Shown here: one piece after another, positions 1 through 5,626 of the stretch
How positions within the stretch are numbered: position 1 is the stretch's first letter
How the letters are laid out: each line of letters starts with the position of its first letter
Source: a virus
Taxonomy: Duplodnaviria > Heunggongvirae > Uroviricota > Caudoviricetes
Reading direction: 5' to 3' (one strand)
DNA: 7,543 bases
Virus record (IMG/VR): IMGVR_UViG_2778261182_000005
Translations under genes and position numbers: made by a program
Notes under the pieces: generated by a model
The model's database searches: none
Told to the model about the DNA's origin: nothing
Seen by the model: only the letters and a program-made list of their open reading frames with translations

Positions 1-61
<61 letters not shown>

Positions 62-64
62 ATA

Positions 65-139
65 TGGTGCCGACTACCGGAATCGAACCTCGCACTCTCA
101 ACTTAAAGGGTTGACGCTCTTTCCTGATGAGCTAGTGGC
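65..139 (-). tRNA. tRNA-like element, probably a degenerate or pseudo-tRNA (tRNA-Thr-like 3' end, anticodon loop CCUUUAA)
   Basis: Reverse complement is GCCACTAGCTCATCAGGAAAGAGCGTCAACCCTTTAAGTTGAGAGTGCGAGGTTCGATTCCGGTAGTCGGCACCA, 75 nt, flanked by 3-nt spacers to its neighbours. It has a D-arm-like GCTC...GAGC and an anticodon stem TCAAC/GTTGA, but position 33 is C, the T-stem does not pair, and the acceptor stem has a mismatch or bulge. The 3' 24 nt match the 3' end of an E. coli thrW-type tRNA-Thr as I recall it. Confidence 0.45.
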
Positions 140-142
140 GGT

Positions 143-218
143 TGGTGGCCCTTGCTGGATTTGAACCAGCGACCTGGCGATTATGAGTCGCTCGCTCTCA
201 CCACTGAGCTAAAGGGCC
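143..218 (-). tRNA. tRNA with CAU anticodon, tRNA-Ile2 (lysidine type, ileX/ileZ-like) rather than elongator Met
   Basis: Reverse complement is GGCCCTTTAGCTCAGTGGTGAGAGCGAGCGACTCATAATCGCCAGGTCGCTGGTTCAAATCCAGCAAGGGCCACCA, 76 nt with a canonical cloverleaf and encoded CCA. Anticodon loop is ACTCATAAT. Near-identical in layout to E. coli ileX from memory. Confidence 0.85.
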
Positions 219-340: not shown

Positions 341-1060
341 TTAACGAACTCTGACTACATTAATTTCAAAGTCATCAATCTGCCCGCTATTAAGTATAAC
401 GAATGCAGAACTCCCATTACTGTACGATTTCGATAAAACCAGACGATCATCATAGCGTGCAAGAACGTAATACCAAGTATTCTCATAGTGGATCGTCTGA
501 TATTCCCTCTTAAACTGGGGTTTATACCAACCGGCAATAAGAGAGAATGTCCAGAAATAAATCATGAATCCAGCCATAATAAACTCAATTCGGTGATGGC
601 GAATAAAAGACACTTCCGAAAAACATTTGACTGAAATAAGTCTTCTTCCTGACCTGACAAAAAGCGTAATTGTAAAGGCAGCAATAACACAAAAAAACAG
701 CACATCTGGCTCAACGTGCTGATGAATTACCGAAAACTCCAGAACAGGCGGAATAAAAAGCAGCAATATTGCCAGAAAAAGTCTGATAAAACTCAAATTC
801 TGTATATTGTTTTTTTGTTTTATGCCTAAAAAGAAAACAATACCTACTCCCCATCCAGTAAGGAATATAACGATAACGCTCACAGCATAAAACAAACTTC
901 GGGCCACATCATCAACGCCAGCCCCGACGATCCACCATGGAAAGCCATAGTAAAAGGAAGTCCCCCATCCATAGAAATAAGCGCTTCCCCATCCAAGACA
1001 GCCCATATAAGCAATAAAAAGTGAAGAGTTCCTCAGCAGAGTGCTGTCATCCATACCCAT
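341..1060 (-). CDS. Multi-pass integral membrane protein of unknown function (about 5 predicted TM helices plus a roughly 60-aa C-terminal soluble tail); late-operon moron
   Basis: ORF of 239 aa with ATG at 1060 (alternative ATG at 1054 with GAGAG upstream) and TAA at 343-341. Hydrophobic stretches include LFIAYMGCLGWGSAYFYGWG, SLFYAVSVIVIFLTGWGVGIVFFLGI, LFLAILLLFIPPVLEF, VLFFCVIAAFTITLFV and IEFIMAGFMIYFWTFSLIAGW. A sampled stretch (601-660) is about 35 percent GC versus about 52 percent in the nin genes. No family recognised. Confidence 0.6.
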   Translation of the reverse strand: MGMDDSTLLRNSSLFIAYMGCLGWGSAYFYGWGTSFYYGFPWWIVGAGVDDVARSLFYAVSVIVIFLTGWGVGIVFFLGIKQKNNIQNLSFIRLFLAILLLFIPPVLEFSVIHQHVEPDVLFFCVIAAFTITLFVRSGRRLISVKCFSEVSFIRHHRIEFIMAGFMIYFWTFSLIAGWYKPQFKREYQTIHYENTWYYVLARYDDRLVLSKSYSNGSSAFVILNSGQIDDFEINVVRVR

Positions 1061-1299: not shown

Positions 1300-2121
1300 C
1301 TATCGCGTTACCCTCTTTAACTGCCGCTCCGCCCATGCCTCTTCAATGTCAAACCGAACCACCAACGTATCGTAAAAGCGTTTCACTGATTTTTTCCACG
1401 TATCAAGCGTGATAGCACTCGTCACTTTGCGTATGGCATTAAATGCCTCCGTTGACGGTAATCTTTCATAGCCACGACCGCCACAACGCTGGCAGTCCCT
1501 GATAACAGGCGTCCCCCGTTTTTCTGACTCTTCACGATGAATGGCTACACCACGCCCACGGCAGTCTTTACAGGCAGTGGAAATCTCTCCCTTCCCTTTA
1601 CATTCAGGACAGGAAACTTTCACCACCTCCCTAACTTTTTTCCATTCTTCCCAGTAAGACGGATACACACCTTTTGTGCACTTTGCCCATACTGGCGGCT
1701 TGCCATCCGGATACTGAACCTTGTTTGTAAAAACTTCGCTTTCAATAAATTTTTCCCCATGGCAACAAGGGCACTGTTTTTTACTCGCTGCGCTGCGGGC
1801 ATAATCCTCAAAAGCGTACGAAGCCATAATGCGCATCACTGCCGGCTTTATTTCTGCCGGAAGCTTTCTTAACGCCGCCACGCGATCGCACTGACTTAAT
1901 GCATAATCTGCCAGTAATTCTGTTGCCCGCACCCTGTCATTCATACTAATGCCCATTTTCCCCAGGAACGCAGAAAACCCCATCTCAGCCCGGTTTTGTG
2001 TCATACCCTGCGCAGCCATCACATCAGTGATGCTCAGCGCATCTTTTGACGTCGAGGCGGATGCATCAGTCAGGCCTGGCGATTTTGGGGAATAGTATTT
2101 CGGTAAATCTTCCAGTTTCAT
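1300..2121 (-). CDS. Late-gene antitermination protein Q (long, phage 82/YdfT-like type with DnaJ-like CxxCxGxG zinc-finger repeats)
   Basis: ORF of 273 aa. Repeated CxxC motifs (CPCCHGEK, CPECKGKGE, CKDCRGRG, CQRCGGRGY). Position is immediately upstream of a lambda-like pR'/tR' and downstream of rusA. The ATG at 2121-2119 overlaps the rusA TGA (ATGA coupling). Confidence 0.75.
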   Translation of the reverse strand: MKLEDLPKYYSPKSPGLTDASASTSKDALSITDVMAAQGMTQNRAEMGFSAFLGKMGISMNDRVRATELLADYALSQCDRVAALRKLPAEIKPAVMRIMASYAFEDYARSAASKKQCPCCHGEKFIESEVFTNKVQYPDGKPPVWAKCTKGVYPSYWEEWKKVREVVKVSCPECKGKGEISTACKDCRGRGVAIHREESEKRGTPVIRDCQRCGGRGYERLPSTEAFNAIRKVTSAITLDTWKKSVKRFYDTLVVRFDIEEAWAERQLKRVTR

Positions 2122-2492
2122 TTTTGGACCTGCCCGTCATGCATTATTTCGTAAATTTTCACACCCAACCGCCCACCGGGAACGACCTGACCGCGCACAA
2201 TATTGATTTCATCAAACTGCTCGTCGTCGATAAGCAGTCCCGCATGCGTCAGCGCATCCAGCGGTGCTTTCAGGATATTGTCCAGGTCGCGGCGGCGCTT
2301 ATCCGGTGGCTCTGCAATAATCTTTATCGCCAGCCTTCCGGACAGGTTTAATTTCAGTCGCTGCTGGCGAACAATTAGCGCCACATCACGGCGATAACGC
2401 TCACCGACTTTTGATACAAAATATGTGCTGCCACGACGTCGCCAGTAAGTATTCACCGTCGGCGGATAAGGCAAAACAAACTCTATACGCAT
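2118..2492 (-). CDS. rusA: Holliday junction resolvase RusA (crossover junction endodeoxyribonuclease)
   Basis: ORF of 124 aa. The motif PDKRRRDLDNILKAPLDALTHAGLLIDDEQ matches the RusA catalytic core (E. coli RusA has [22 protein letters not shown]). SD AAGAGG lies 7 nt upstream of the ATG at 2492. Confidence 0.9.
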   Translation of the reverse strand: MRIEFVLPYPPTVNTYWRRRGSTYFVSKVGERYRRDVALIVRQQRLKLNLSGRLAIKIIAEPPDKRRRDLDNILKAPLDALTHAGLLIDDEQFDEINIVRGQVVPGGRLGVKIYEIMHDGQVQK

Positions 2493-2504: not shown

Positions 2505-3554
2505 TTACCCGAGCACGCCGGTTGCAAAGGCGTGATCAAGAAAACGAAAAATTAAATCAATCTGGGAACCATGCTTTTCTTCGAACGCCAGCGGGTCCGC
2601 ATGAAGCTCGTTGTGATGCTCCCGACACAGCGGTAGCGTGAAAATATCGTGAGATTTTGTCCCCATCCCGCCCTGACCATGACCAATCAGGTGATGGGGC
2701 TCGTCTGCTGGCTTACCACAACACGCACACGGCTGTGTCTTTACCCAGCGCGTGTATTTCTCATTTATCCAACGGCGACGTTTAGGTCGCCTCATGAAAG
2801 ATTCCGGAGACTCCGGATCAACGGCAATGCTGACCACCGTCTTTTCCTGTGGTGTGTTCTGTTGCTGGTGGATGTGAGGCGGTAACGCAATATTTTTTGT
2901 GCGCTGCTTCAGTATGCTGGTGGCTGTCTGTTCTCCCGGTATGATGTCGCATTCGCGGTATACTGAGTGGATTTTTTCACCTGGAAGCTTCAGGATTCGA
3001 CGCGCCATATTTTCGGTCATGGCATCCACTACATCATTTACAGCAGCCCAGCAGTACAATTCAGCCAGCGATAATTCCCGCTCCTGTGTGCCATTCATTG
3101 CGTGACGGATGACGTCAATCATCCATGCTGACAGGTTTTGGTGAGCAAGTTGCTCAAGTGATTCGGATGTCTGGTCACGCATCTGGTTGTCGCAGTGCCA
3201 GCACAACACCATCGCGCCGGTACCGTAACGATGTATGACGGTTTCACTGTGATGGTAGTCGCCATGAGGCCACTGGCAGGATTTGACATGACGCAACAGC
3301 CAGTCAGACAGTGCACCAGCGCCGCCAGCAGCACGAATCACCCGTTCGTTGCTGAAAAATGGCAGTAATGATTTATCTTCCGCCAGCGGCTGGCGAACGG
3401 CAGGAACGACTCCGGATGGCAGACCGCGCATGCTTTTCGGTTCAGACTCTACCAGTACACGGGCATGACGTAATATCGGCATGGTTTCATGGTCCAGCTT
3501 AATAACAGCCAGCCCGAGTTCCGGCACCAGAACAGGTCGAAGTAATGCCCTCAC
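2505..3554 (-). CDS. DUF968-family phage protein (YdfU-like; C-terminal Cys/His-rich HNH-like putative nuclease domain)
   Basis: C-terminal region has PCACCGKPADEPHHLIGHGQGGMGTKSHDIFTLPLCREHHNELH. Preferred start is GTG at 3554-3552, 1 nt after the upstream gene's TAA and preceded by GGAGG, giving 349 aa. Alternatives are ATG at 3482 and the track's ATG at 3632, which would overlap the upstream gene by 77 nt. Confidence 0.7.
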   Translation of the reverse strand: MRALLRPVLVPELGLAVIKLDHETMPILRHARVLVESEPKSMRGLPSGVVPAVRQPLAEDKSLLPFFSNERVIRAAGGAGALSDWLLRHVKSCQWPHGDYHHSETVIHRYGTGAMVLCWHCDNQMRDQTSESLEQLAHQNLSAWMIDVIRHAMNGTQERELSLAELYCWAAVNDVVDAMTENMARRILKLPGEKIHSVYRECDIIPGEQTATSILKQRTKNIALPPHIHQQQNTPQEKTVVSIAVDPESPESFMRRPKRRRWINEKYTRWVKTQPCACCGKPADEPHHLIGHGQGGMGTKSHDIFTLPLCREHHNELHADPLAFEEKHGSQIDLIFRFLDHAFATGVLG

Positions 3555-3555
3555 G

Positions 3556-3828
3556 TTACCTCCAGATACGCTGGCGATAACAATAAGGTGTGCGCGGCTG
3601 ACGGTTTGATACTGGCAGTGCCACCGAAACAAACCACGTTTTGCCGTCGATATTGAGTTGCCTTGTCACCACGTAACCGCGACGAGCGTACAACAACTCA
3701 AGCTCCTCAAGCTCATGCGTCGTGCAGTTCGGATAGTAAAAGGGCTGTTTTTCAGATACGCAAAAACGCCGCCCACGCCTGCTGGCAAGGCCGGCATCAG
3801 AATTGTGAAATTTGGTATTGCGCGCCAT
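3556..3828 (-). CDS. Hypothetical small phage protein (90 aa), nin-region
   Basis: ATG at 3828 preceded by AGGAG at 6-nt spacing; TAA at 3558-3556. Translationally coupled to the downstream DUF968 gene. No family recognised. Confidence 0.6.
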   Translation of the reverse strand: MARNTKFHNSDAGLASRRGRRFCVSEKQPFYYPNCTTHELEELELLYARRGYVVTRQLNIDGKTWFVSVALPVSNRQPRTPYCYRQRIWR

Positions 3829-3906
3829 CTTGACTCCTGTGGCGCAGCAGGTGCCAGTTGTTCAGGCTGGCGTGCGGATTGTAAACCAGAACACAGGGAT
3901 AACACA

Positions 3907-3931: not shown

Positions 3932-4351
3932 TTAAGCTGAGCCCGGCGAATACCAGGGGAAATAAATATCGCTTAACGACGTGTGTTTGAGAACAGAGTC
4001 CACCGCCAATTTTAACGTCAACGACATGAAATTCTCAAAATACCATGAATTTTTCACAAAGAATTTTTCATCGATCAACTCTCCATTCATGATATCAAAG
4101 TCCGTAATCAGCTCCATCTTTAGCTCAAAAGAGGGTTCTTCATCCTCGGCAAGCCCCCCATCTCTATCGGGATACCCTTTTATCGATGGCGAAAACCCAA
4201 TCCGGAACCAACAGGTACCATCATCATCACGCCCCGAAGAAAATTTAACTTCCTCGATCGAGACCTTAAAAAAACCTCCATCATCACTAGTGTTATCCTT
4301 GAAACTACTGGAAACAATATCGAAACCAGCATACTTAATATTTTGTAACAT
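3932..4351 (-). CDS. Acidic hypothetical protein (139 aa from the coupled ATG; 144 aa from ATG 4366), third gene of the hicAB cassette
   Basis: ATG at 4351-4349 overlaps the hicB TGA (4353-4351) as TGATG. Strongly acidic (many D/E, few K/R) with one Cys. A sampled stretch (4021-4080) is about 28 percent GC. No family recognised. Confidence 0.6.
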   Translation of the reverse strand: MLQNIKYAGFDIVSSSFKDNTSDDGGFFKVSIEEVKFSSGRDDDGTCWFRIGFSPSIKGYPDRDGGLAEDEEPSFELKMELITDFDIMNGELIDEKFFVKNSWYFENFMSLTLKLAVDSVLKHTSLSDIYFPWYSPGSA

Positions 4352-4827
4352 CAGTGACGCATCCATCGCTCACCAGCCTCTTTCTTTTTTGTTCTTGCTG
4401 AAGGGGAAATGACGTAACCAAAAGAGAATGCTTTTTCCCAAACGAGCGTATCTGCCGTTTCTTCGCTTTCCGAATGAGAATAAACTTCTTTTTTGTCTGC
4501 AATCTTTTCTTCGATAGCTTTACGCACATAATCATTAAGCGTCGTCTTATCCGCCATTGCAGCCAAAAACGCTTTCTTATGAAGATCGCGACCAATTCTG
4601 ATGTTAAAAGTACCACTCATTGGTTTATCAGGAGATTTCCCTAACTGTTTGCATGTGTCGAGATAATCTGTAACAGCTTCTTCAAAAGCCGCCCTTAACC
4701 CACCCAGTGTTTCCGCTTCGTAGGTTACGACATCGTTTACGCACTGAATTTTCCCATGAAGTATGTTATCTTCAAGTGAAACCTCAATGCTGCCAAAATA
4801 ACCTTTATAACTCAGCACATTACTCAT
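4351..4827 (-). CDS. hicB: HicB-family antitoxin (UPF0150/RNase H-like N-domain plus RHH DNA-binding domain) with a roughly 45-aa C-terminal extension
   Basis: The N-terminus MSNVLSYKGYFGSIEVSLEDNILHGKI...TYEAETLGGLRAAFEEAVTDYLDTCKQLGKSPDKPMSGTFNIRIGRDLHKKAFLAAMADKTTLNDYVRKAIEE matches the HicB-like antitoxin pattern. Start taken as ATG 4827 (MSNV..., 158 aa); the track's ATG at 4842 adds 5 residues. Overlaps the hicA stop. Confidence 0.8.
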   Translation of the reverse strand: MSNVLSYKGYFGSIEVSLEDNILHGKIQCVNDVVTYEAETLGGLRAAFEEAVTDYLDTCKQLGKSPDKPMSGTFNIRIGRDLHKKAFLAAMADKTTLNDYVRKAIEEKIADKKEVYSHSESEETADTLVWEKAFSFGYVISPSARTKKKEAGERWMRH

Positions 4828-5068
4828 AACTATCAATCTCATCCAAAAGATTTTTCACTTCTTTAAGCACATATCCTTTAACAATATTGCCAGGATGTGG
4901 GCAATGAAAAGCCACAAGCCTTCCATTAGCATTGGTAAATTTCCTTCTTGAGCCTGAACCGGTAAGCATTTCGAAACCATAATGCCCAAGCAACGTCACG
5001 AGTTCATCCCATGTAAAATCCTTTGGAAGCTGATTCAGACGCCACCTCAACTTCTCTTTTTTGCTCAT
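4820..5068 (-). CDS. hicA: HicA-family toxin (YcfA-like mRNA interferase), 82 aa
   Basis: FTWDELVTLLGHYGFEMLTGSGSRRKFTNANGRLVAFHCPHPGNIVKGYVLKEVKNLL fits the HicA pattern (ELxxLL...G...GS..F....R...H.PH.G). Located upstream of hicB in the toxin-first order typical of hicAB. ATG at 5068 with a G-rich SD (GGGGGAAGGG) upstream. Confidence 0.85.
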   Translation of the reverse strand: MSKKEKLRWRLNQLPKDFTWDELVTLLGHYGFEMLTGSGSRRKFTNANGRLVAFHCPHPGNIVKGYVLKEVKNLLDEIDSYE

Positions 5069-5296: not shown

Positions 5297-5452
5297 TTAC
5301 TCCTCAGGTTCGTAAGCTGTGAAGACAGCGACCTCCGTCTGGCCGGTTCGGATTCGTACCTCGCAGAGGTCTTTCCTCGTTACCAGTGCCGTCACTATGA
5401 CGGTTAAACAGATGACGATCAGGGCGATTAACATCGCCTTTTGCTGCTTCAT
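5297..5452 (-). CDS. hokD: Hok/Gef-family type I toxin (51 aa membrane peptide), HokD/RelF-like
   Basis: Hand translation gives MKQQKAMLIALIVICLTVIVTALVTRKDLCEVRIRTGQTEVAVFTAYEPEE, matching Hok family and HokD/RelF as recalled. SD AAGGAG lies 8 nt upstream of the ATG. Not in the ORF track because it is under 60 aa. Confidence 0.9.
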   Translation of the reverse strand: MKQQKAMLIALIVICLTVIVTALVTRKDLCEVRIRTGQTEVAVFTAYEPEE

Positions 5453-5508
5453 AGCCTGCTTCTCCTTGACCTTTCGGTCCGTAAGAGGCTAATCTCTATG
5501 TGTCGCAT
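5449..5508 (-). CDS. mok-like leader ORF (19 codons) whose stop overlaps the hok start (ATGA)
   Basis: ATG at 5508-5506 (MRHIEISLLRTERSRRSRL) ends in TGA at 5451-5449, overlapping the hok ATG at 5452-5450. A GAGG SD lies upstream. The leader sequence is homologous to the plasmid R1 hok/mok leader as recalled (ATAGCCTCTTAC, AAGGAGAAG). Confidence 0.5.
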   Translation of the reverse strand: MRHIEISLLRTERSRRSRL

Positions 5509-5570
5509 AGATATGGCCTCAGATTAATGTTAAGCGTCTTGCCGGACGCGTAATGTTAACTGGGGCTTTT
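5500..5570 (+). ncRNA. Predicted Sok-like antisense RNA (approximate limits) complementary to the mok translation initiation region
   Basis: Inferred from hok/sok architecture. A plus-strand TTGACC (5466-5471) with a weak -10 (5489-5495) would start transcription just before the mok start and SD complement. A small hairpin GCGTC-ttgccg-GACGC lies at 5534-5549. The ends are not determined. Confidence 0.3.
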
Positions 5571-5626
5571 CTCTATCTGCCGTTGGTGTTCATGCCCGAG
5601 GCAGATAGCCTCAAGCACCCGCAGCA

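What the first reader, a model, noticed from the sequence alone, without database searches (positions are those of the whole stretch)
3556..3828. Unassigned 90-aa nin-region protein translationally coupled to the DUF968 gene
It has a good SD and its stop lies 1 nt before the DUF968 GTG. It occupies the position that the small gene rem holds next to ydfU in E. coli K-12 Qin, but I cannot confirm any sequence relationship from memory.
Basis: inference. Interest (0 to 1): 0.2.

Follow-up and report, generated by a model that had tools for sequence, protein, structure and literature searches.

The report
Small conserved lambdoid-phage nin-region protein
This is a real but ordinary small phage gene of unknown function, catalogued as PHROG 1212, that sits directly in front of a nuclease gene; it is unrelated to Rem, and its true counterpart in E. 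coli K-12 is an unannotated gene between rem and ydfU.

Summary
A 90-codon ORF lies on the minus strand (3828->3556). It has an AGGAG Shine-Dalgarno 5 nt before its ATG. Its TAA stop is 1 nt before the GTG start of the DUF968 gene, and its last codons (TGG AGG) form that gene's GGAGG ribosome-binding site.

It is a genuine gene. dN/dS is 0.10-0.43, an identical protein is in RefSeq as a hypothetical protein, and it matches PHROG 1212 (unknown function, E=5e-22).

The Rem idea fails: there is no similarity to Rem, NinE or NinF. Rem and this gene co-occur in Qin-type prophages. K-12 Qin carries an unannotated 92-aa orthologue (42% identity) between rem and ydfU with the same junction.

The family is small (104 clusters among 1.84 billion proteins) and seen in enterobacterial lambdoid and N15-like phages. 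A 66-aa core form also exists.

The neighbouring genes vary (DUF968, YbcO, NinG, RusA, DnaQ-like exonucleases, unknowns), and most DUF968 genes lack it. It is therefore not an obligate nuclease partner.

The AF2 model shows a beta-alpha-beta-beta core with basic tails and only a weak R3H-like resemblance. My best guess is a small nucleic-acid-binding accessory protein of the phage recombination module. That function is unproven. Interest is low.

The parts
3556..3828 (-). Coding sequence of the 90-aa small basic protein (phrog_1212 family; identical to RefSeq WP_089553065.1)
   Evidence: ORF list. PGAP annotation of the identical protein in E. coli SC407. phrog_1212 E=5.2e-22. dN/dS 0.10-0.43. 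pI 10.1, net charge +8.7.
3742..3828 (-). N-terminal extension (residues 1-29). It is basic, predicted disordered, and found only in the 90-92-aa long form that precedes DUF968.
   Evidence: AF2 pLDDT is below 50 for residues 1-3 and 5-19. The extension is absent from the 66-68-aa forms. Its dN/dS is 0.35-0.43, against 0.07-0.19 for the core in the most informative pairs.
3619..3741 (-). Conserved core domain (residues 30-70) with beta-alpha-beta-beta topology
   Evidence: AF2 pLDDT is about 90: E30-35, H37-50, E53-58, E65-70. The same topology appears in a 66-aa Salmonella member, pLDDT 80-87. Conserved residues: C35, T36, L43, Y47, R50, G51, L58, D61, W65.
3559..3618 (-). C-terminal tail (residues 71-90) that ends in the conserved motif Q-x-[RK]-h-W-[RG]. 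Its last two codons double as the SD of the downstream gene.
   Evidence: Alignment. Junction table of 16 loci. Model confidence in the tail is low to moderate.
3834..3838 (-). Shine-Dalgarno AGGAG of the small ORF, 5 nt before the ATG
   Evidence: Read from the sequence. Conserved as GGAG in four of the five aligned loci; Tritos has AGAG.
3559..3563 (-). Shine-Dalgarno GGAGG of the DUF968 gene, lying inside the last two codons (Trp-Arg) of the small ORF
2505..3554 (-). DUF968 / YdfU-like His-Me-finger (HNH) protein, 349 aa with a GTG start. This is the downstream gene with the coupling-type junction.
   Evidence: Pfam DUF968 E=1.7e-74. phrog_96 'HNH endonuclease' E=8.6e-168. 79% identical to K-12 YdfU. 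PGAP start in SC407. DUF968 and DUF1364 form His-Me finger group 7 (PMC5714182).
3897..3926 (-). Intrinsic-terminator-like hairpin (AAGCCCGCCGATGCGGGCTT followed by TGTGTT). It separates the hok/hicAB/144-aa cargo genes from the small ORF.
3853..3883 (-). Conserved leader with a TACAAT hexamer (3883-3878) and a hairpin GCCAG-CCUGAACAA-CUGGC (3871-3853). Its role is unknown.
   Evidence: DNA alignment of 5 loci. K-12 has GCGGGG-CUGAAC-UCCCGC, a different stem with the same loop core. The folding z-scores are unremarkable (-0.5 to -2.0).
2118..2492 (-). Context: RusA Holliday-junction resolvase gene
   Evidence: Pfam RusA E=2.4e-15.
1300..2121 (-). Context: Q-type late antiterminator
   Evidence: Pfam Antiterm E=1.5e-49.

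Best explanation
SHOWN:
- This is a genuine protein-coding gene of the delayed-early ('nin') operon of a lambdoid E. coli prophage.
- It belongs to a small, fast-evolving family seen in enterobacterial lambdoid and N15-like phages: PHROG 1212, which includes N15 'orf QD1', Gifsy-1/2 STM1021.1n and an unannotated ORF in K-12 Qin.
- The protein has a roughly 40-residue beta-alpha-beta-beta core. It is flanked by a disordered basic N-terminal extension, found only in the long form, and by a conserved basic C-terminal tail ending in Q-x-R/K-h-W-R/G.
- The gene ends 1 nt before the GTG start of the DUF968 (YdfU-type HNH) gene and carries that gene's ribosome-binding site in its last two codons.

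INFERRED:
- Ribosomes finishing the small ORF re-initiate on DUF968, so the two are made together.
- The protein itself is a free-standing, small, basic nucleic-acid-binding accessory factor. It probably binds single-stranded or branched DNA.
- It acts within the phage recombination and DNA-processing module (NinB/Orf, DUF1367 or RdgC upstream; NinG/Rap, YbcO, DUF968, RusA or DnaQ-like exonucleases downstream). It is not a dedicated subunit of one enzyme.
For: Gene reality:
- dN/dS is 0.10-0.43.
- Homologues share the reading frame.
- It matches phrog_1212 at E=5e-22.
- PGAP annotates it.

Family size and range:
- An exhaustive profile search finds 104 clusters (50% identity) among 1.84 billion proteins.
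- The named sources and phage hits are Enterobacterales: Escherichia, Salmonella, Klebsiella, Citrobacter, Cronobacter, Leclercia, Yersinia.

Coupling:
- The 1-nt junction with an internal GGAGG is identical in four loci read base by base.
- The coordinate spacing is the same in all 20 phage records that carry the long form.
- In 14 of 16 family loci the next gene starts within about 3 nt of the stop or overlaps it, and in 12 of them the terminal TGG-RGG codons lie a few bases before that start, whatever the next gene is.
- The N15 authors annotated the same arrangement for orf QD1 and dnq.

Recombination-module context:
- Upstream genes: NinB, DUF1367 or RdgC.
- Downstream genes: DUF968, YbcO, NinG, RusA, RNase_T or Rv2179c-type exonucleases.

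Nucleic-acid binding:
- pI is 10.1 and net charge about +9; other members range from pI 7.95 to 10.2.
- The beta-alpha-beta-beta core is predicted at pLDDT about 90 and is reproduced in a short-form member.
Against: - No experiment or characterised homologue supports any function.
- The R-x3-H motif is absent, and no Pfam family recurs among the 51 members scanned.
- The C-terminal helix that would complete an R3H-like fold is not robust.
- The basic charge may partly reflect the disordered tails.
- One member (mEp237) is nearly neutral, pI 7.95.
- nin regions are tightly packed everywhere, so adjacency to recombination genes and short intergenic distances may be synteny without a functional link.
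- Translational coupling is inferred from geometry only.
Confidence: 0.5

Rival explanations
1. It is a dedicated partner of the DUF968 HNH nuclease: an inhibitor/immunity protein, or a specificity or activating subunit, made stoichiometrically through translational coupling.
For: - The small ORF-DUF968 pair is invariant while the upstream cargo changes (rem, relBE, hicAB, ImmA-like, others).
- The 90-92-aa long form was found only in front of DUF968, always with the same 1-nt junction.
- Short forms often precede other His-Me or HNH-type nucleases (YbcO, NinG).
Against: - 153 of 173 phage records with a DUF968 homologue have no family member. In the three contexts inspected (mEp460, and by annotation SfV and LLS) DUF968 follows KilA-N/Ant genes instead.
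- Family members also precede RusA, DnaQ-like exonucleases, a dGTP-diphosphohydrolase-like fragment and unknown proteins. Two loci are not coupled at all.
- The small ORF is only 42% identical between window and K-12 while the adjacent DUF968 is 79% identical. This looks like mosaic exchange rather than co-evolution.
- A strongly basic protein is atypical for a nuclease inhibitor (established knowledge of acidic immunity proteins and DNA mimics).
Confidence: 0.15
2. It is a host-factor binder. The conserved extreme C-terminal motif Q-x-[RK]-[IVMA]-W-[RG] acts as a short linear motif, for example a sliding-clamp-binding-like peptide (compare QL[SD]LF), that docks the protein on host replication or repair machinery.
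For: - The tail motif and the penultimate Trp are conserved across the family, including two loci where no downstream gene is coupled. SD constraints alone therefore do not explain the Trp.
- The tail is predicted to be flexible.
- The resemblance to clamp-binding motifs is recalled from memory only.
Against:
- The motif departs from the clamp consensus at positions 2-3.
- The terminal TGG-RGG codons are also explained by their role as the downstream SD in 12 of 16 loci.
Confidence: 0.07
3. It is the Rem homologue or equivalent, or a NinE/NinF-type protein.
For: Only a rough positional analogy: it is a small gene in the nin region upstream of the nuclease slot.
Against: - BLASTP against Rem finds no alignment at E<=100.
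- hhalign of the family profile gives probability 0.13% for Rem, 0.07% for NinE and 0.12% for NinF.
- There are no Pfam NinE or NinF hits.
- rem and the orthologue co-occur in one prophage.
Confidence: 0.02
4. It is a toxin, as in the GenBank label 'toxin to Rem', or a component of some other toxin-antitoxin system.
For: Several phage records label the gene 'toxin to Rem'. It lies next to hok/sok and hicAB modules.
Against: - No paper in the library supports the label.
- rem is absent from this window.
- There is no PADLOC hit.
- The TA modules are variable cargo separated from it by a terminator.
Confidence: 0.03
5. It is a spurious ORF, that is, a non-coding leader of the DUF968 gene.
For: K-12 MG1655, N15 and phiKO2 reference records leave the homologous stretch unannotated. 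The stretch upstream of ydfU has been described as a strong Rho-dependent terminator (PMC9160355).
Against: - dN/dS is well below 1.
- Indels occur in whole codons.
- The frame is conserved at 31-47% identity across genera.
- The core fold is predicted with confidence.
Confidence: 0.01

Closest known systems
PHROG phrog_1212 (unknown function)
   Same: Significant profile match (E=5.2e-22) covering residues 27-90 against 64 of the 66 profile positions. It has the same core and C-terminal tail as the 66-aa members such as Gifsy-2 STM1021.1n, mEp237_051 and phiES15_017.
   Different: The window protein has a 25-29-residue disordered basic N-terminal extension that the 66-position profile lacks. 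It belongs to a rare sub-branch: 12 clusters and 2 of 5426 complete E. coli genomes by DNA.
Unannotated 92-aa ORF between rem and ydfU in E. coli K-12 Qin (annotated 'hypothetical protein' by PGAP in other genomes)
   Same: 42% identity over the full length (E=5e-23). Same N-terminus (MARN.K..NSD), same C-terminus (QRIWR), and the same atcTGGAGGTAAcGTG junction to a DUF968 gene that is 79% identical. The Qin type is present in 2391 of 5426 E. coli genomes.
   Different: The core sequences differ strongly (FYYPNCTTHELEELELLYARRGY versus WFQHPPCTAEQAEWLIHSYRRRGF), and there is a two-codon length difference. The upstream cargo is rem/hokD/relBE instead of hicAB plus a 144-aa gene.
Phage N15 'orf QD1' (Lobocka et al. 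immB region record U45242; function unknown)
   Same: A family member (P0276) found by the family profile at E=1e-6 is 88-91% identical to N15 DNA at 35954-36154, inside orf QD1. BFVD's best structural hit is O21966, Orf QD1. There too the next gene's RBS lies in the last codons.
   Different: It lies just downstream of Q in a linear plasmid-prophage and precedes a DnaQ-like exonuclease (dnq), not DUF968. It is annotated as 142 aa from an upstream start, and it is only distantly similar to the window protein.
R3H / Jag(KhpB) / YlmH-N small single-stranded-nucleic-acid-binding domains
   Different: All scores are below significance. There is no R-x3-H motif and no Pfam R3H hit even at E<=10 in 51 members. 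The final helix is not robustly predicted. This is a functional analogy at most, not membership.
Lambda NinE/NinF and K-12 Rem (small nin-region proteins)
   Same: Small genes in the same general part of the delayed-early operon, upstream of the NinG/YbcO/DUF968 slot.
   Different: No detectable sequence relationship.

Membership tests
PHROG phrog_1212 | Significant match to the family profile HMM over most of its length | tested here: met
   E=5.2e-22, 78.7 bits; protein residues 27-90 match profile positions 3-66 of 66.
PHROG phrog_1212 / orf QD1 family | Conserved core residues (C/x-T-x-x-E-A-x-x-L...Y-R-x-x-G...L-x-x-D...W...L-P...Q-x-R/K-h-W) | tested here: met
   C35, T36, L43, Y47, R50, G51, L58, D61, W65, L71, P72 and W89 are invariant or at least 90% conserved in 51 sequences. 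The pattern is kept in divergent members.
Rem (E. coli K-12 Qin) | Sequence similarity to Rem | tested here: not met
   BLASTP finds no alignment at E<=100. hhalign probability is 0.13%.
Rem (E. coli K-12 Qin) | Mutually exclusive occupancy of the slot next to ydfU | tested here: not met
   rem and the orthologous ORF are both present in K-12 Qin and in strain JNE21-009.
NinE (PF05322) / NinF (PF05810) | Match to the Pfam model or profile similarity to the lambda proteins | tested here: not met
   No Pfam hit. hhalign probability is 0.07% for NinE and 0.12% for NinF.
R3H domain (PF01424) | beta-alpha-beta-beta-alpha fold superposable on solved R3H domains | tested here: inconclusive
   [not shown]
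R3H domain (PF01424) | Conserved Arg-x-x-x-His motif and a Pfam model match | tested here: not met
   The alignment shows no R-x3-H in helix 1. R3H is absent from the Pfam hits of 51 members at E<=10.
Obligate partner (immunity protein or subunit) of DUF968/YdfU nucleases | Co-occurrence with the nuclease across its phylogenetic range | tested here: not met
   Only the 20 phage records whose DUF968 is at least 74.7% identical to the window's carry it, out of 173 records with DUF968. mEp460 and LLS have KilA-N/Ant genes upstream instead.
Obligate partner (immunity protein or subunit) of DUF968/YdfU nucleases | Physical interaction with the nuclease | not testable with these tools
   No complex prediction or experiment was available. 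Only single-chain predictions were allowed.
Translationally coupled gene pair | Stop and start within a few nt, with the downstream SD inside the upstream ORF | tested here: met
   TGG AGG TAA c GTG at 3564-3552. The arrangement is conserved in 4 loci read base by base and by coordinate spacing in 20 phage records.
Translationally coupled gene pair | Dependence of downstream translation on upstream translation | not testable with these tools
   This needs reporter fusions with a premature stop codon in the small ORF.
Anti-phage defence or toxin-antitoxin component | Match to a PADLOC or TA family model | tested here: not met
   No PADLOC hit, no Pfam or NCBIfam hit. The label 'toxin to Rem' has no literature support.

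The most novel reading that the evidence does not exclude
The family could be an unrecognised class of small phage regulators. Its R3H-like core would bind single-stranded or branched DNA, and its conserved C-terminal Q-x-R/K-h-W tail would dock onto a host or phage DNA-processing protein (the sliding clamp, SSB, or the adjacent nuclease or exonuclease). It would then act as a portable adaptor that targets whichever nuclease gene is placed behind it.
Probability: 0.1. Interest if true: 0.45.

Novelty: already known. Interest (0 to 1): 0.15.

Why it matters
The finding matters little in itself. It is one more conserved hypothetical gene of the lambdoid nin region, already catalogued in RefSeq as a 'hypothetical protein' and in PHROGs as family 1212.

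Three modest points have practical value:
1. The reference annotations of E. coli K-12 MG1655 (Qin), N15 and phiKO2 omit a conserved, purifying-selected gene of this family. In K-12 the omitted stretch is treated as an untranslated region 'upstream of ydfU' with a strong Rho-dependent terminator.
2. The family is a compact, confidently predicted beta-alpha-beta-beta domain. It consistently sits among recombination and nuclease genes, which makes it a cheap candidate for biochemical testing.
3. The data show that it is not an obligate partner of DUF968. This prevents an over-interpretation of the tight junction.

Tried and rejected
- **Protein-family libraries.** Pfam, NCBIfam and PADLOC scans of the protein gave no hits. 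A permissive Pfam scan (E<=10) of all 51 aligned members found no recurrent family; the best was Glyoxalase, in 2 members.
- **Solved structures by sequence.** A profile search of PDB sequences found nothing at E<=10.
- **Related loci.** The search for related loci with the family alignment failed because no stretch was conserved enough. I used the look-up of encoding contigs and phage tblastn instead.
- **Gene-order permutation idea.** I tested whether the DUF968 N-terminal half is a fused DUF1367 or NinG relative, which would make 'DUF1367-small-YbcO' and 'small-DUF968' permutations of each other. BLASTP found nothing against DUF1367 or NinG and only a weak HNH-motif match to YbcO, E=0.015. 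I did not pursue this further.
- **Rfam.** The scan of the window found no known RNA family near the ORF, only sok and tRNAs elsewhere.
- **Leader hairpin as a nut/boxB-like site.** I considered this and dropped it. There is no boxA, the folding z-scores are unremarkable, and only two stem variants are available.
- **'Toxin to Rem' label.** No supporting literature was found.
- **Natural fusions.** Longer proteins containing the domain (P0212, P0227, P0239, P0242) look like deletion chimeras with unrelated neighbours, not fusions to nucleases.

Full report
**1. The observation**

The ORF at 3556-3828 is real, but it lies on the minus strand. Read 5'->3' on that strand:
- AGGAG (3838-3834) is followed by a 5-nt spacer and then ATG (3828-3826).
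- After 90 sense codons come TAA (3558-3556), a single C (3555) and GTG (3554-3552).
- The GTG opens the frame MRALLRPVLV..., which is the DUF968 protein (Pfam DUF968 E=1.7e-74; phrog_96 'HNH endonuclease' E=8.6e-168).
- The last two sense codons of the small ORF, TGG AGG, form a GGAGG 4 nt before that GTG.

PGAP annotates exactly these two CDSs with the same 1-nt gap in a near-identical prophage of E. coli SC407: WP_089553065.1, 90 aa, identical protein, followed by a 1050-nt DUF968 CDS.

A 90-codon ORF is not in itself beyond chance, because the window holds 63 ORFs of at least 40 aa. The case rests on conservation.

**2. It is a gene**

- Homologues with the same frame are abundant. There are 12 clusters close to the window protein (67-99% identity), 129 clusters of a Qin-type branch and 67 clusters of a 66-68-aa branch from Salmonella, Citrobacter, Klebsiella, Leclercia and others.
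- Length differences are whole codons.
- Nei-Gojobori estimates on five long-form genes give dN/dS of 0.10-0.43. In three of the four pairs examined the core (0.07-0.19) is more constrained than the N-terminal extension (0.35-0.43). In the fourth pair the core had too few changes to judge.
- The protein matches PHROG phrog_1212, category 'unknown function', at E=5.2e-22. It matches nothing in Pfam, NCBIfam or PADLOC.

**3. It is not Rem, NinE or NinF**

- BLASTP against K-12 Rem gives no alignment even at E<=100.
- Profile comparison of a 51-sequence family alignment gives probabilities of 0.13% for Rem, 0.07% for lambda NinE and 0.12% for lambda NinF.

The positional argument also fails. In K-12 Qin, rem ends 346 nt upstream of ydfU. 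That apparently empty stretch contains a 92-codon ORF (L002 6307-6585, minus strand, = NC_000913.3 1644306-1644584). This ORF is 42% identical to the window protein over its full length (E=5e-23). It ends in the identical sequence atcTGGAGGTAAcGTG, running into the ydfU start.

So the true K-12 counterpart is an unannotated gene between rem and ydfU. PGAP annotates that gene as 'hypothetical protein' in other genomes, including other K-12 strains. Its DNA is present in 2391 of 5426 complete E. coli genomes. Strain JNE21-009 shows hokD, rem, the hypothetical gene and ydfU in a row.

By contrast, the window's own variant is rare: 2 of 5426 genomes at the DNA level.

**4. The family**

An exhaustive HMMER profile search of 1.84 billion representative proteins finds only 104 clusters at E<=0.001, most of them about 66 aa long.

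Phage records with a member include Gifsy-1, Gifsy-2, SEN34, SPN3UB, mEp237, phiES15, Klebsiella prophages and 20 E. coli phages with the long form. They also include N15, phiKO2 and relatives. In N15 the domain is the C-terminal part of 'orf QD1'; the complete N15 and phiKO2 records leave that stretch unannotated.

There are two forms:
- A 66-68-aa core form.
- A 90-92-aa form with an added N-terminal stretch (MARN.K..NSD...RRGRR).

Conserved positions are C35, T36, L43, Y47, R50, G51, L58, D61, W65, L71-P72 and W89. The C-terminus reads Q-x-[RK]-[IVMA]-W-[RG] across the family.

The window protein is strongly basic, with pI 10.1 and charge +8.7. Other members range from pI 7.95 to 10.2.

**5. 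Structure**

- AlphaFold2 with the family alignment gives pLDDT of about 90 for residues 30-70: strand 30-35, helix 37-50, strand 53-58, strand 65-70.
- The N-terminal 29 residues are disordered or low-confidence (pLDDT below 50 for residues 1-3 and 5-19), and a short helix at 82-88 has moderate confidence.
- A second prediction, for a 66-aa Salmonella member, reproduces the beta-alpha-beta-beta core (pLDDT 80-87). Its tail has low confidence.

Fold searches give nothing significant:
- Foldseek against the PDB has no E<0.5.
- Foldseek against BFVD has N15 Orf QD1 as its best hit (E=0.013), which is a family member rather than an informative neighbour.

**6. Genomic context**

In all E. coli long-form loci the order is hokD, then variable cargo, then the small ORF, DUF968, RusA (sometimes) and Q. 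The variable cargo is rem, relBE, hicAB plus a 144-aa gene, an ImmA-like gene, or others. In the window the cargo block ends in a terminator-like hairpin at 3926-3897.

Short-form members sit in these contexts:

| Upstream | Downstream | Source |
|---|---|---|
| DUF1367 | NinG | Gifsy-2 |
| DUF1367 or NinB-like | YbcO, then RusA | mEp237, phiES15 |
| DUF1367 | YbcO, then Q | Klebsiella phage |
| NinB | RusA | |
| NinB | a 136-aa unknown protein, with NinG further on | |
| NinB two genes upstream | a 122-aa unknown protein, then NinG | |
| MT-A70 methylase gene, with a NinB fragment before it | a dGTP-diphosphohydrolase-like fragment, then NinG | |
| RdgC | a 175-aa unknown protein | |
| Q | DnaQ/RNase_T-type exonucleases in N15-like elements | |

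The constant theme is the recombination and DNA-processing part of the early operon, not one particular neighbour.

**7. Is it a dedicated DUF968 partner?**

No. tblastn finds DUF968 homologues in 173 phage records. The small ORF occurs in only 35 records, and the long form in 20. Those 20 are exactly the 20 records whose DUF968 is at least 74.7% identical to the window's. In each, the coordinates place the small ORF's last sense codon 5 nt before the DUF968 start, which is the same 1-nt junction.

The other 153 DUF968 records lack it (SfV, SfII, SfIV, mEp460, the Stx2c phages, LLS and others). In mEp460 and LLS, DUF968 follows KilA-N/Ant-type genes.

The small ORF is 42% identical between window and K-12, whereas the abutting DUF968 proteins are 79% identical. 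This pattern points to mosaic exchange at a conserved junction rather than co-evolution.

**8. The junction is a family habit**

- In 14 of 16 loci the next gene starts within about 3 nt of the stop or overlaps it.
- In 12 of these, the terminal TGG-(A/G)GG codons plus the stop place a GGAGG, GGGGG or weaker purine-rich SD-like stretch a few bases before the next start. This holds whatever that next gene is.
- In two more loci, start and stop overlap as ATGA.
- Two loci are uncoupled but still keep the Trp.

The conserved terminal Trp-Arg/Gly is therefore probably under dual constraint, from the protein and from the downstream SD. Coupling itself is inferred from geometry and was not tested.

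**9. Best explanation and rivals**

*Shown:* this is a real, catalogued, uncharacterised small phage gene. It is the first gene of the nin-type block that continues with DUF968, RusA and Q, and its junction is built for coupled translation.

*Inferred (confidence about 0.5):* it is a free-standing, basic, nucleic-acid-binding accessory protein of the phage recombination module.

Rivals:
- A dedicated nuclease partner or inhibitor (0.15). The co-occurrence data and the basic charge argue against it.
- A host-factor adaptor acting through the C-terminal motif (0.07). This is untested and the motif resemblance is from memory.
- A toxin, as in the label 'toxin to Rem' (0.03). There is no literature support.
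- Rem, NinE or NinF (0.02).
- A spurious ORF (0.01).

**10. Comparison with the literature**

- DUF968 and DUF1364 (YbcO) form group 7 of the His-Me finger superfamily, with RusA and Q as typical neighbours (PMC5714182).
- DUF968 proteins of Gram-positive phages have been described as Orf-like DNA-binding domains fused to an HNH motif (PMC4118853).
- Neither paper, in the passages retrieved, mentions the small upstream gene.
- A study of Rho-dependent terminators lists the terminator 'upstream of ydfU' among the strongest in E. coli (PMC9160355). Only one passage was read. That region is likely to include the unannotated ORF, which would be untranslated and hence Rho-sensitive in the silent prophage.

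**11. Verdict**

The gene is ordinary and already catalogued, so interest is low (0.15). The useful by-products are the correction of the Rem analogy and the annotation gap in K-12, N15 and phiKO2. The work also shows that the tight junction does not imply an obligate nuclease partnership.

Noticed in passing
L002 6307-6585 (-) = NC_000913.3 1644306-1644584 (minus strand), between rem and ydfU: The K-12 MG1655 reference annotation has no feature for a conserved 92-aa ORF. PGAP calls this ORF 'hypothetical protein' in other genomes, and its DNA is present in 2391 of 5426 complete E. coli genomes. A paper lists the terminator 'upstream of ydfU' among the strongest Rho-dependent terminators (PMC9160355), a region that probably overlaps this ORF.
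   Followed up: partly
N15 NC_001901.1 35954-36154; phiKO2 NC_005857.1 40369-40569: Family members are present but unannotated in the complete N15 and phiKO2 records. The older N15 immB record (U45242) calls the region 'orf QD1'. It is followed by a DnaQ-like 'dnq' gene whose annotated RBS lies in the last codons of orf QD1.
   Followed up: partly
window 3853-3883 (-): The leader upstream of the small ORF is conserved. It has a TACAAT hexamer and a hairpin GCCAG-CCUGAACAA-CUGGC. K-12 Qin has a hairpin with a different stem (GCGGGG/UCCCGC) but the same CUGAAC loop core. The role is unknown, no Rfam family matches, and the folding z-scores are unremarkable.
   Followed up: partly
[not shown]
   Followed up: partly
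window 5297-5452 (-) and 5450-5620 (-): A hok-type toxin ORF (51 aa) with a full-length sok antisense RNA match (Rfam RF01794, 101 bits against a gathering score of 59).
   Followed up: no
window 4820-5068 (-), 4351-4842 (-), 3932-4366 (-): A HicA toxin and HicB antitoxin pair is followed by an overlapping 144-aa ORF of unknown function (phrog_19522, E=5.5e-21). Together they form the variable cargo that occupies the place taken by rem/relBE in K-12 Qin.
   Followed up: no
window 143-218 (-), 1-61 (-), 76-134 (-): tRNA-Met (CAU anticodon), a truncated second tRNA at the window edge and a weak third tRNA-like match lie downstream of the Q gene, as in Stx-type lambdoid phages. The + strand ORF at 152-298 is the usual spurious ORF across a tRNA gene.
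   Followed up: no
window 1300-2121 (-): The Q-type antiterminator (273 aa) carries two matches to the Antiterm model and a DnaJ-type CxxCxGxG zinc-finger segment, like the 271-aa protein labelled 'molecular chaperone' in a Klebsiella phage.
   Followed up: no
GenBank ON470619, ON470612, ON470583 (locus L030 1501-1779): Some phage records label the orthologous gene 'toxin to Rem'. No paper in the searchable library uses or supports that name.
   Followed up: yes
window 3556-3564 and 15 related loci: Across the family, the last two codons (Trp plus Arg/Gly, TGG-RGG) together with the stop codon double as the Shine-Dalgarno of whichever gene follows. This is a dual coding and regulatory constraint on the C-terminus.
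   Followed up: yes
window 341-1060 (-): A 239-aa predicted membrane protein downstream of Q (phrog_1521, E=1.3e-86). It has only a marginal PADLOC AbiC hit (E=0.0037), which is not considered meaningful.
   Followed up: no
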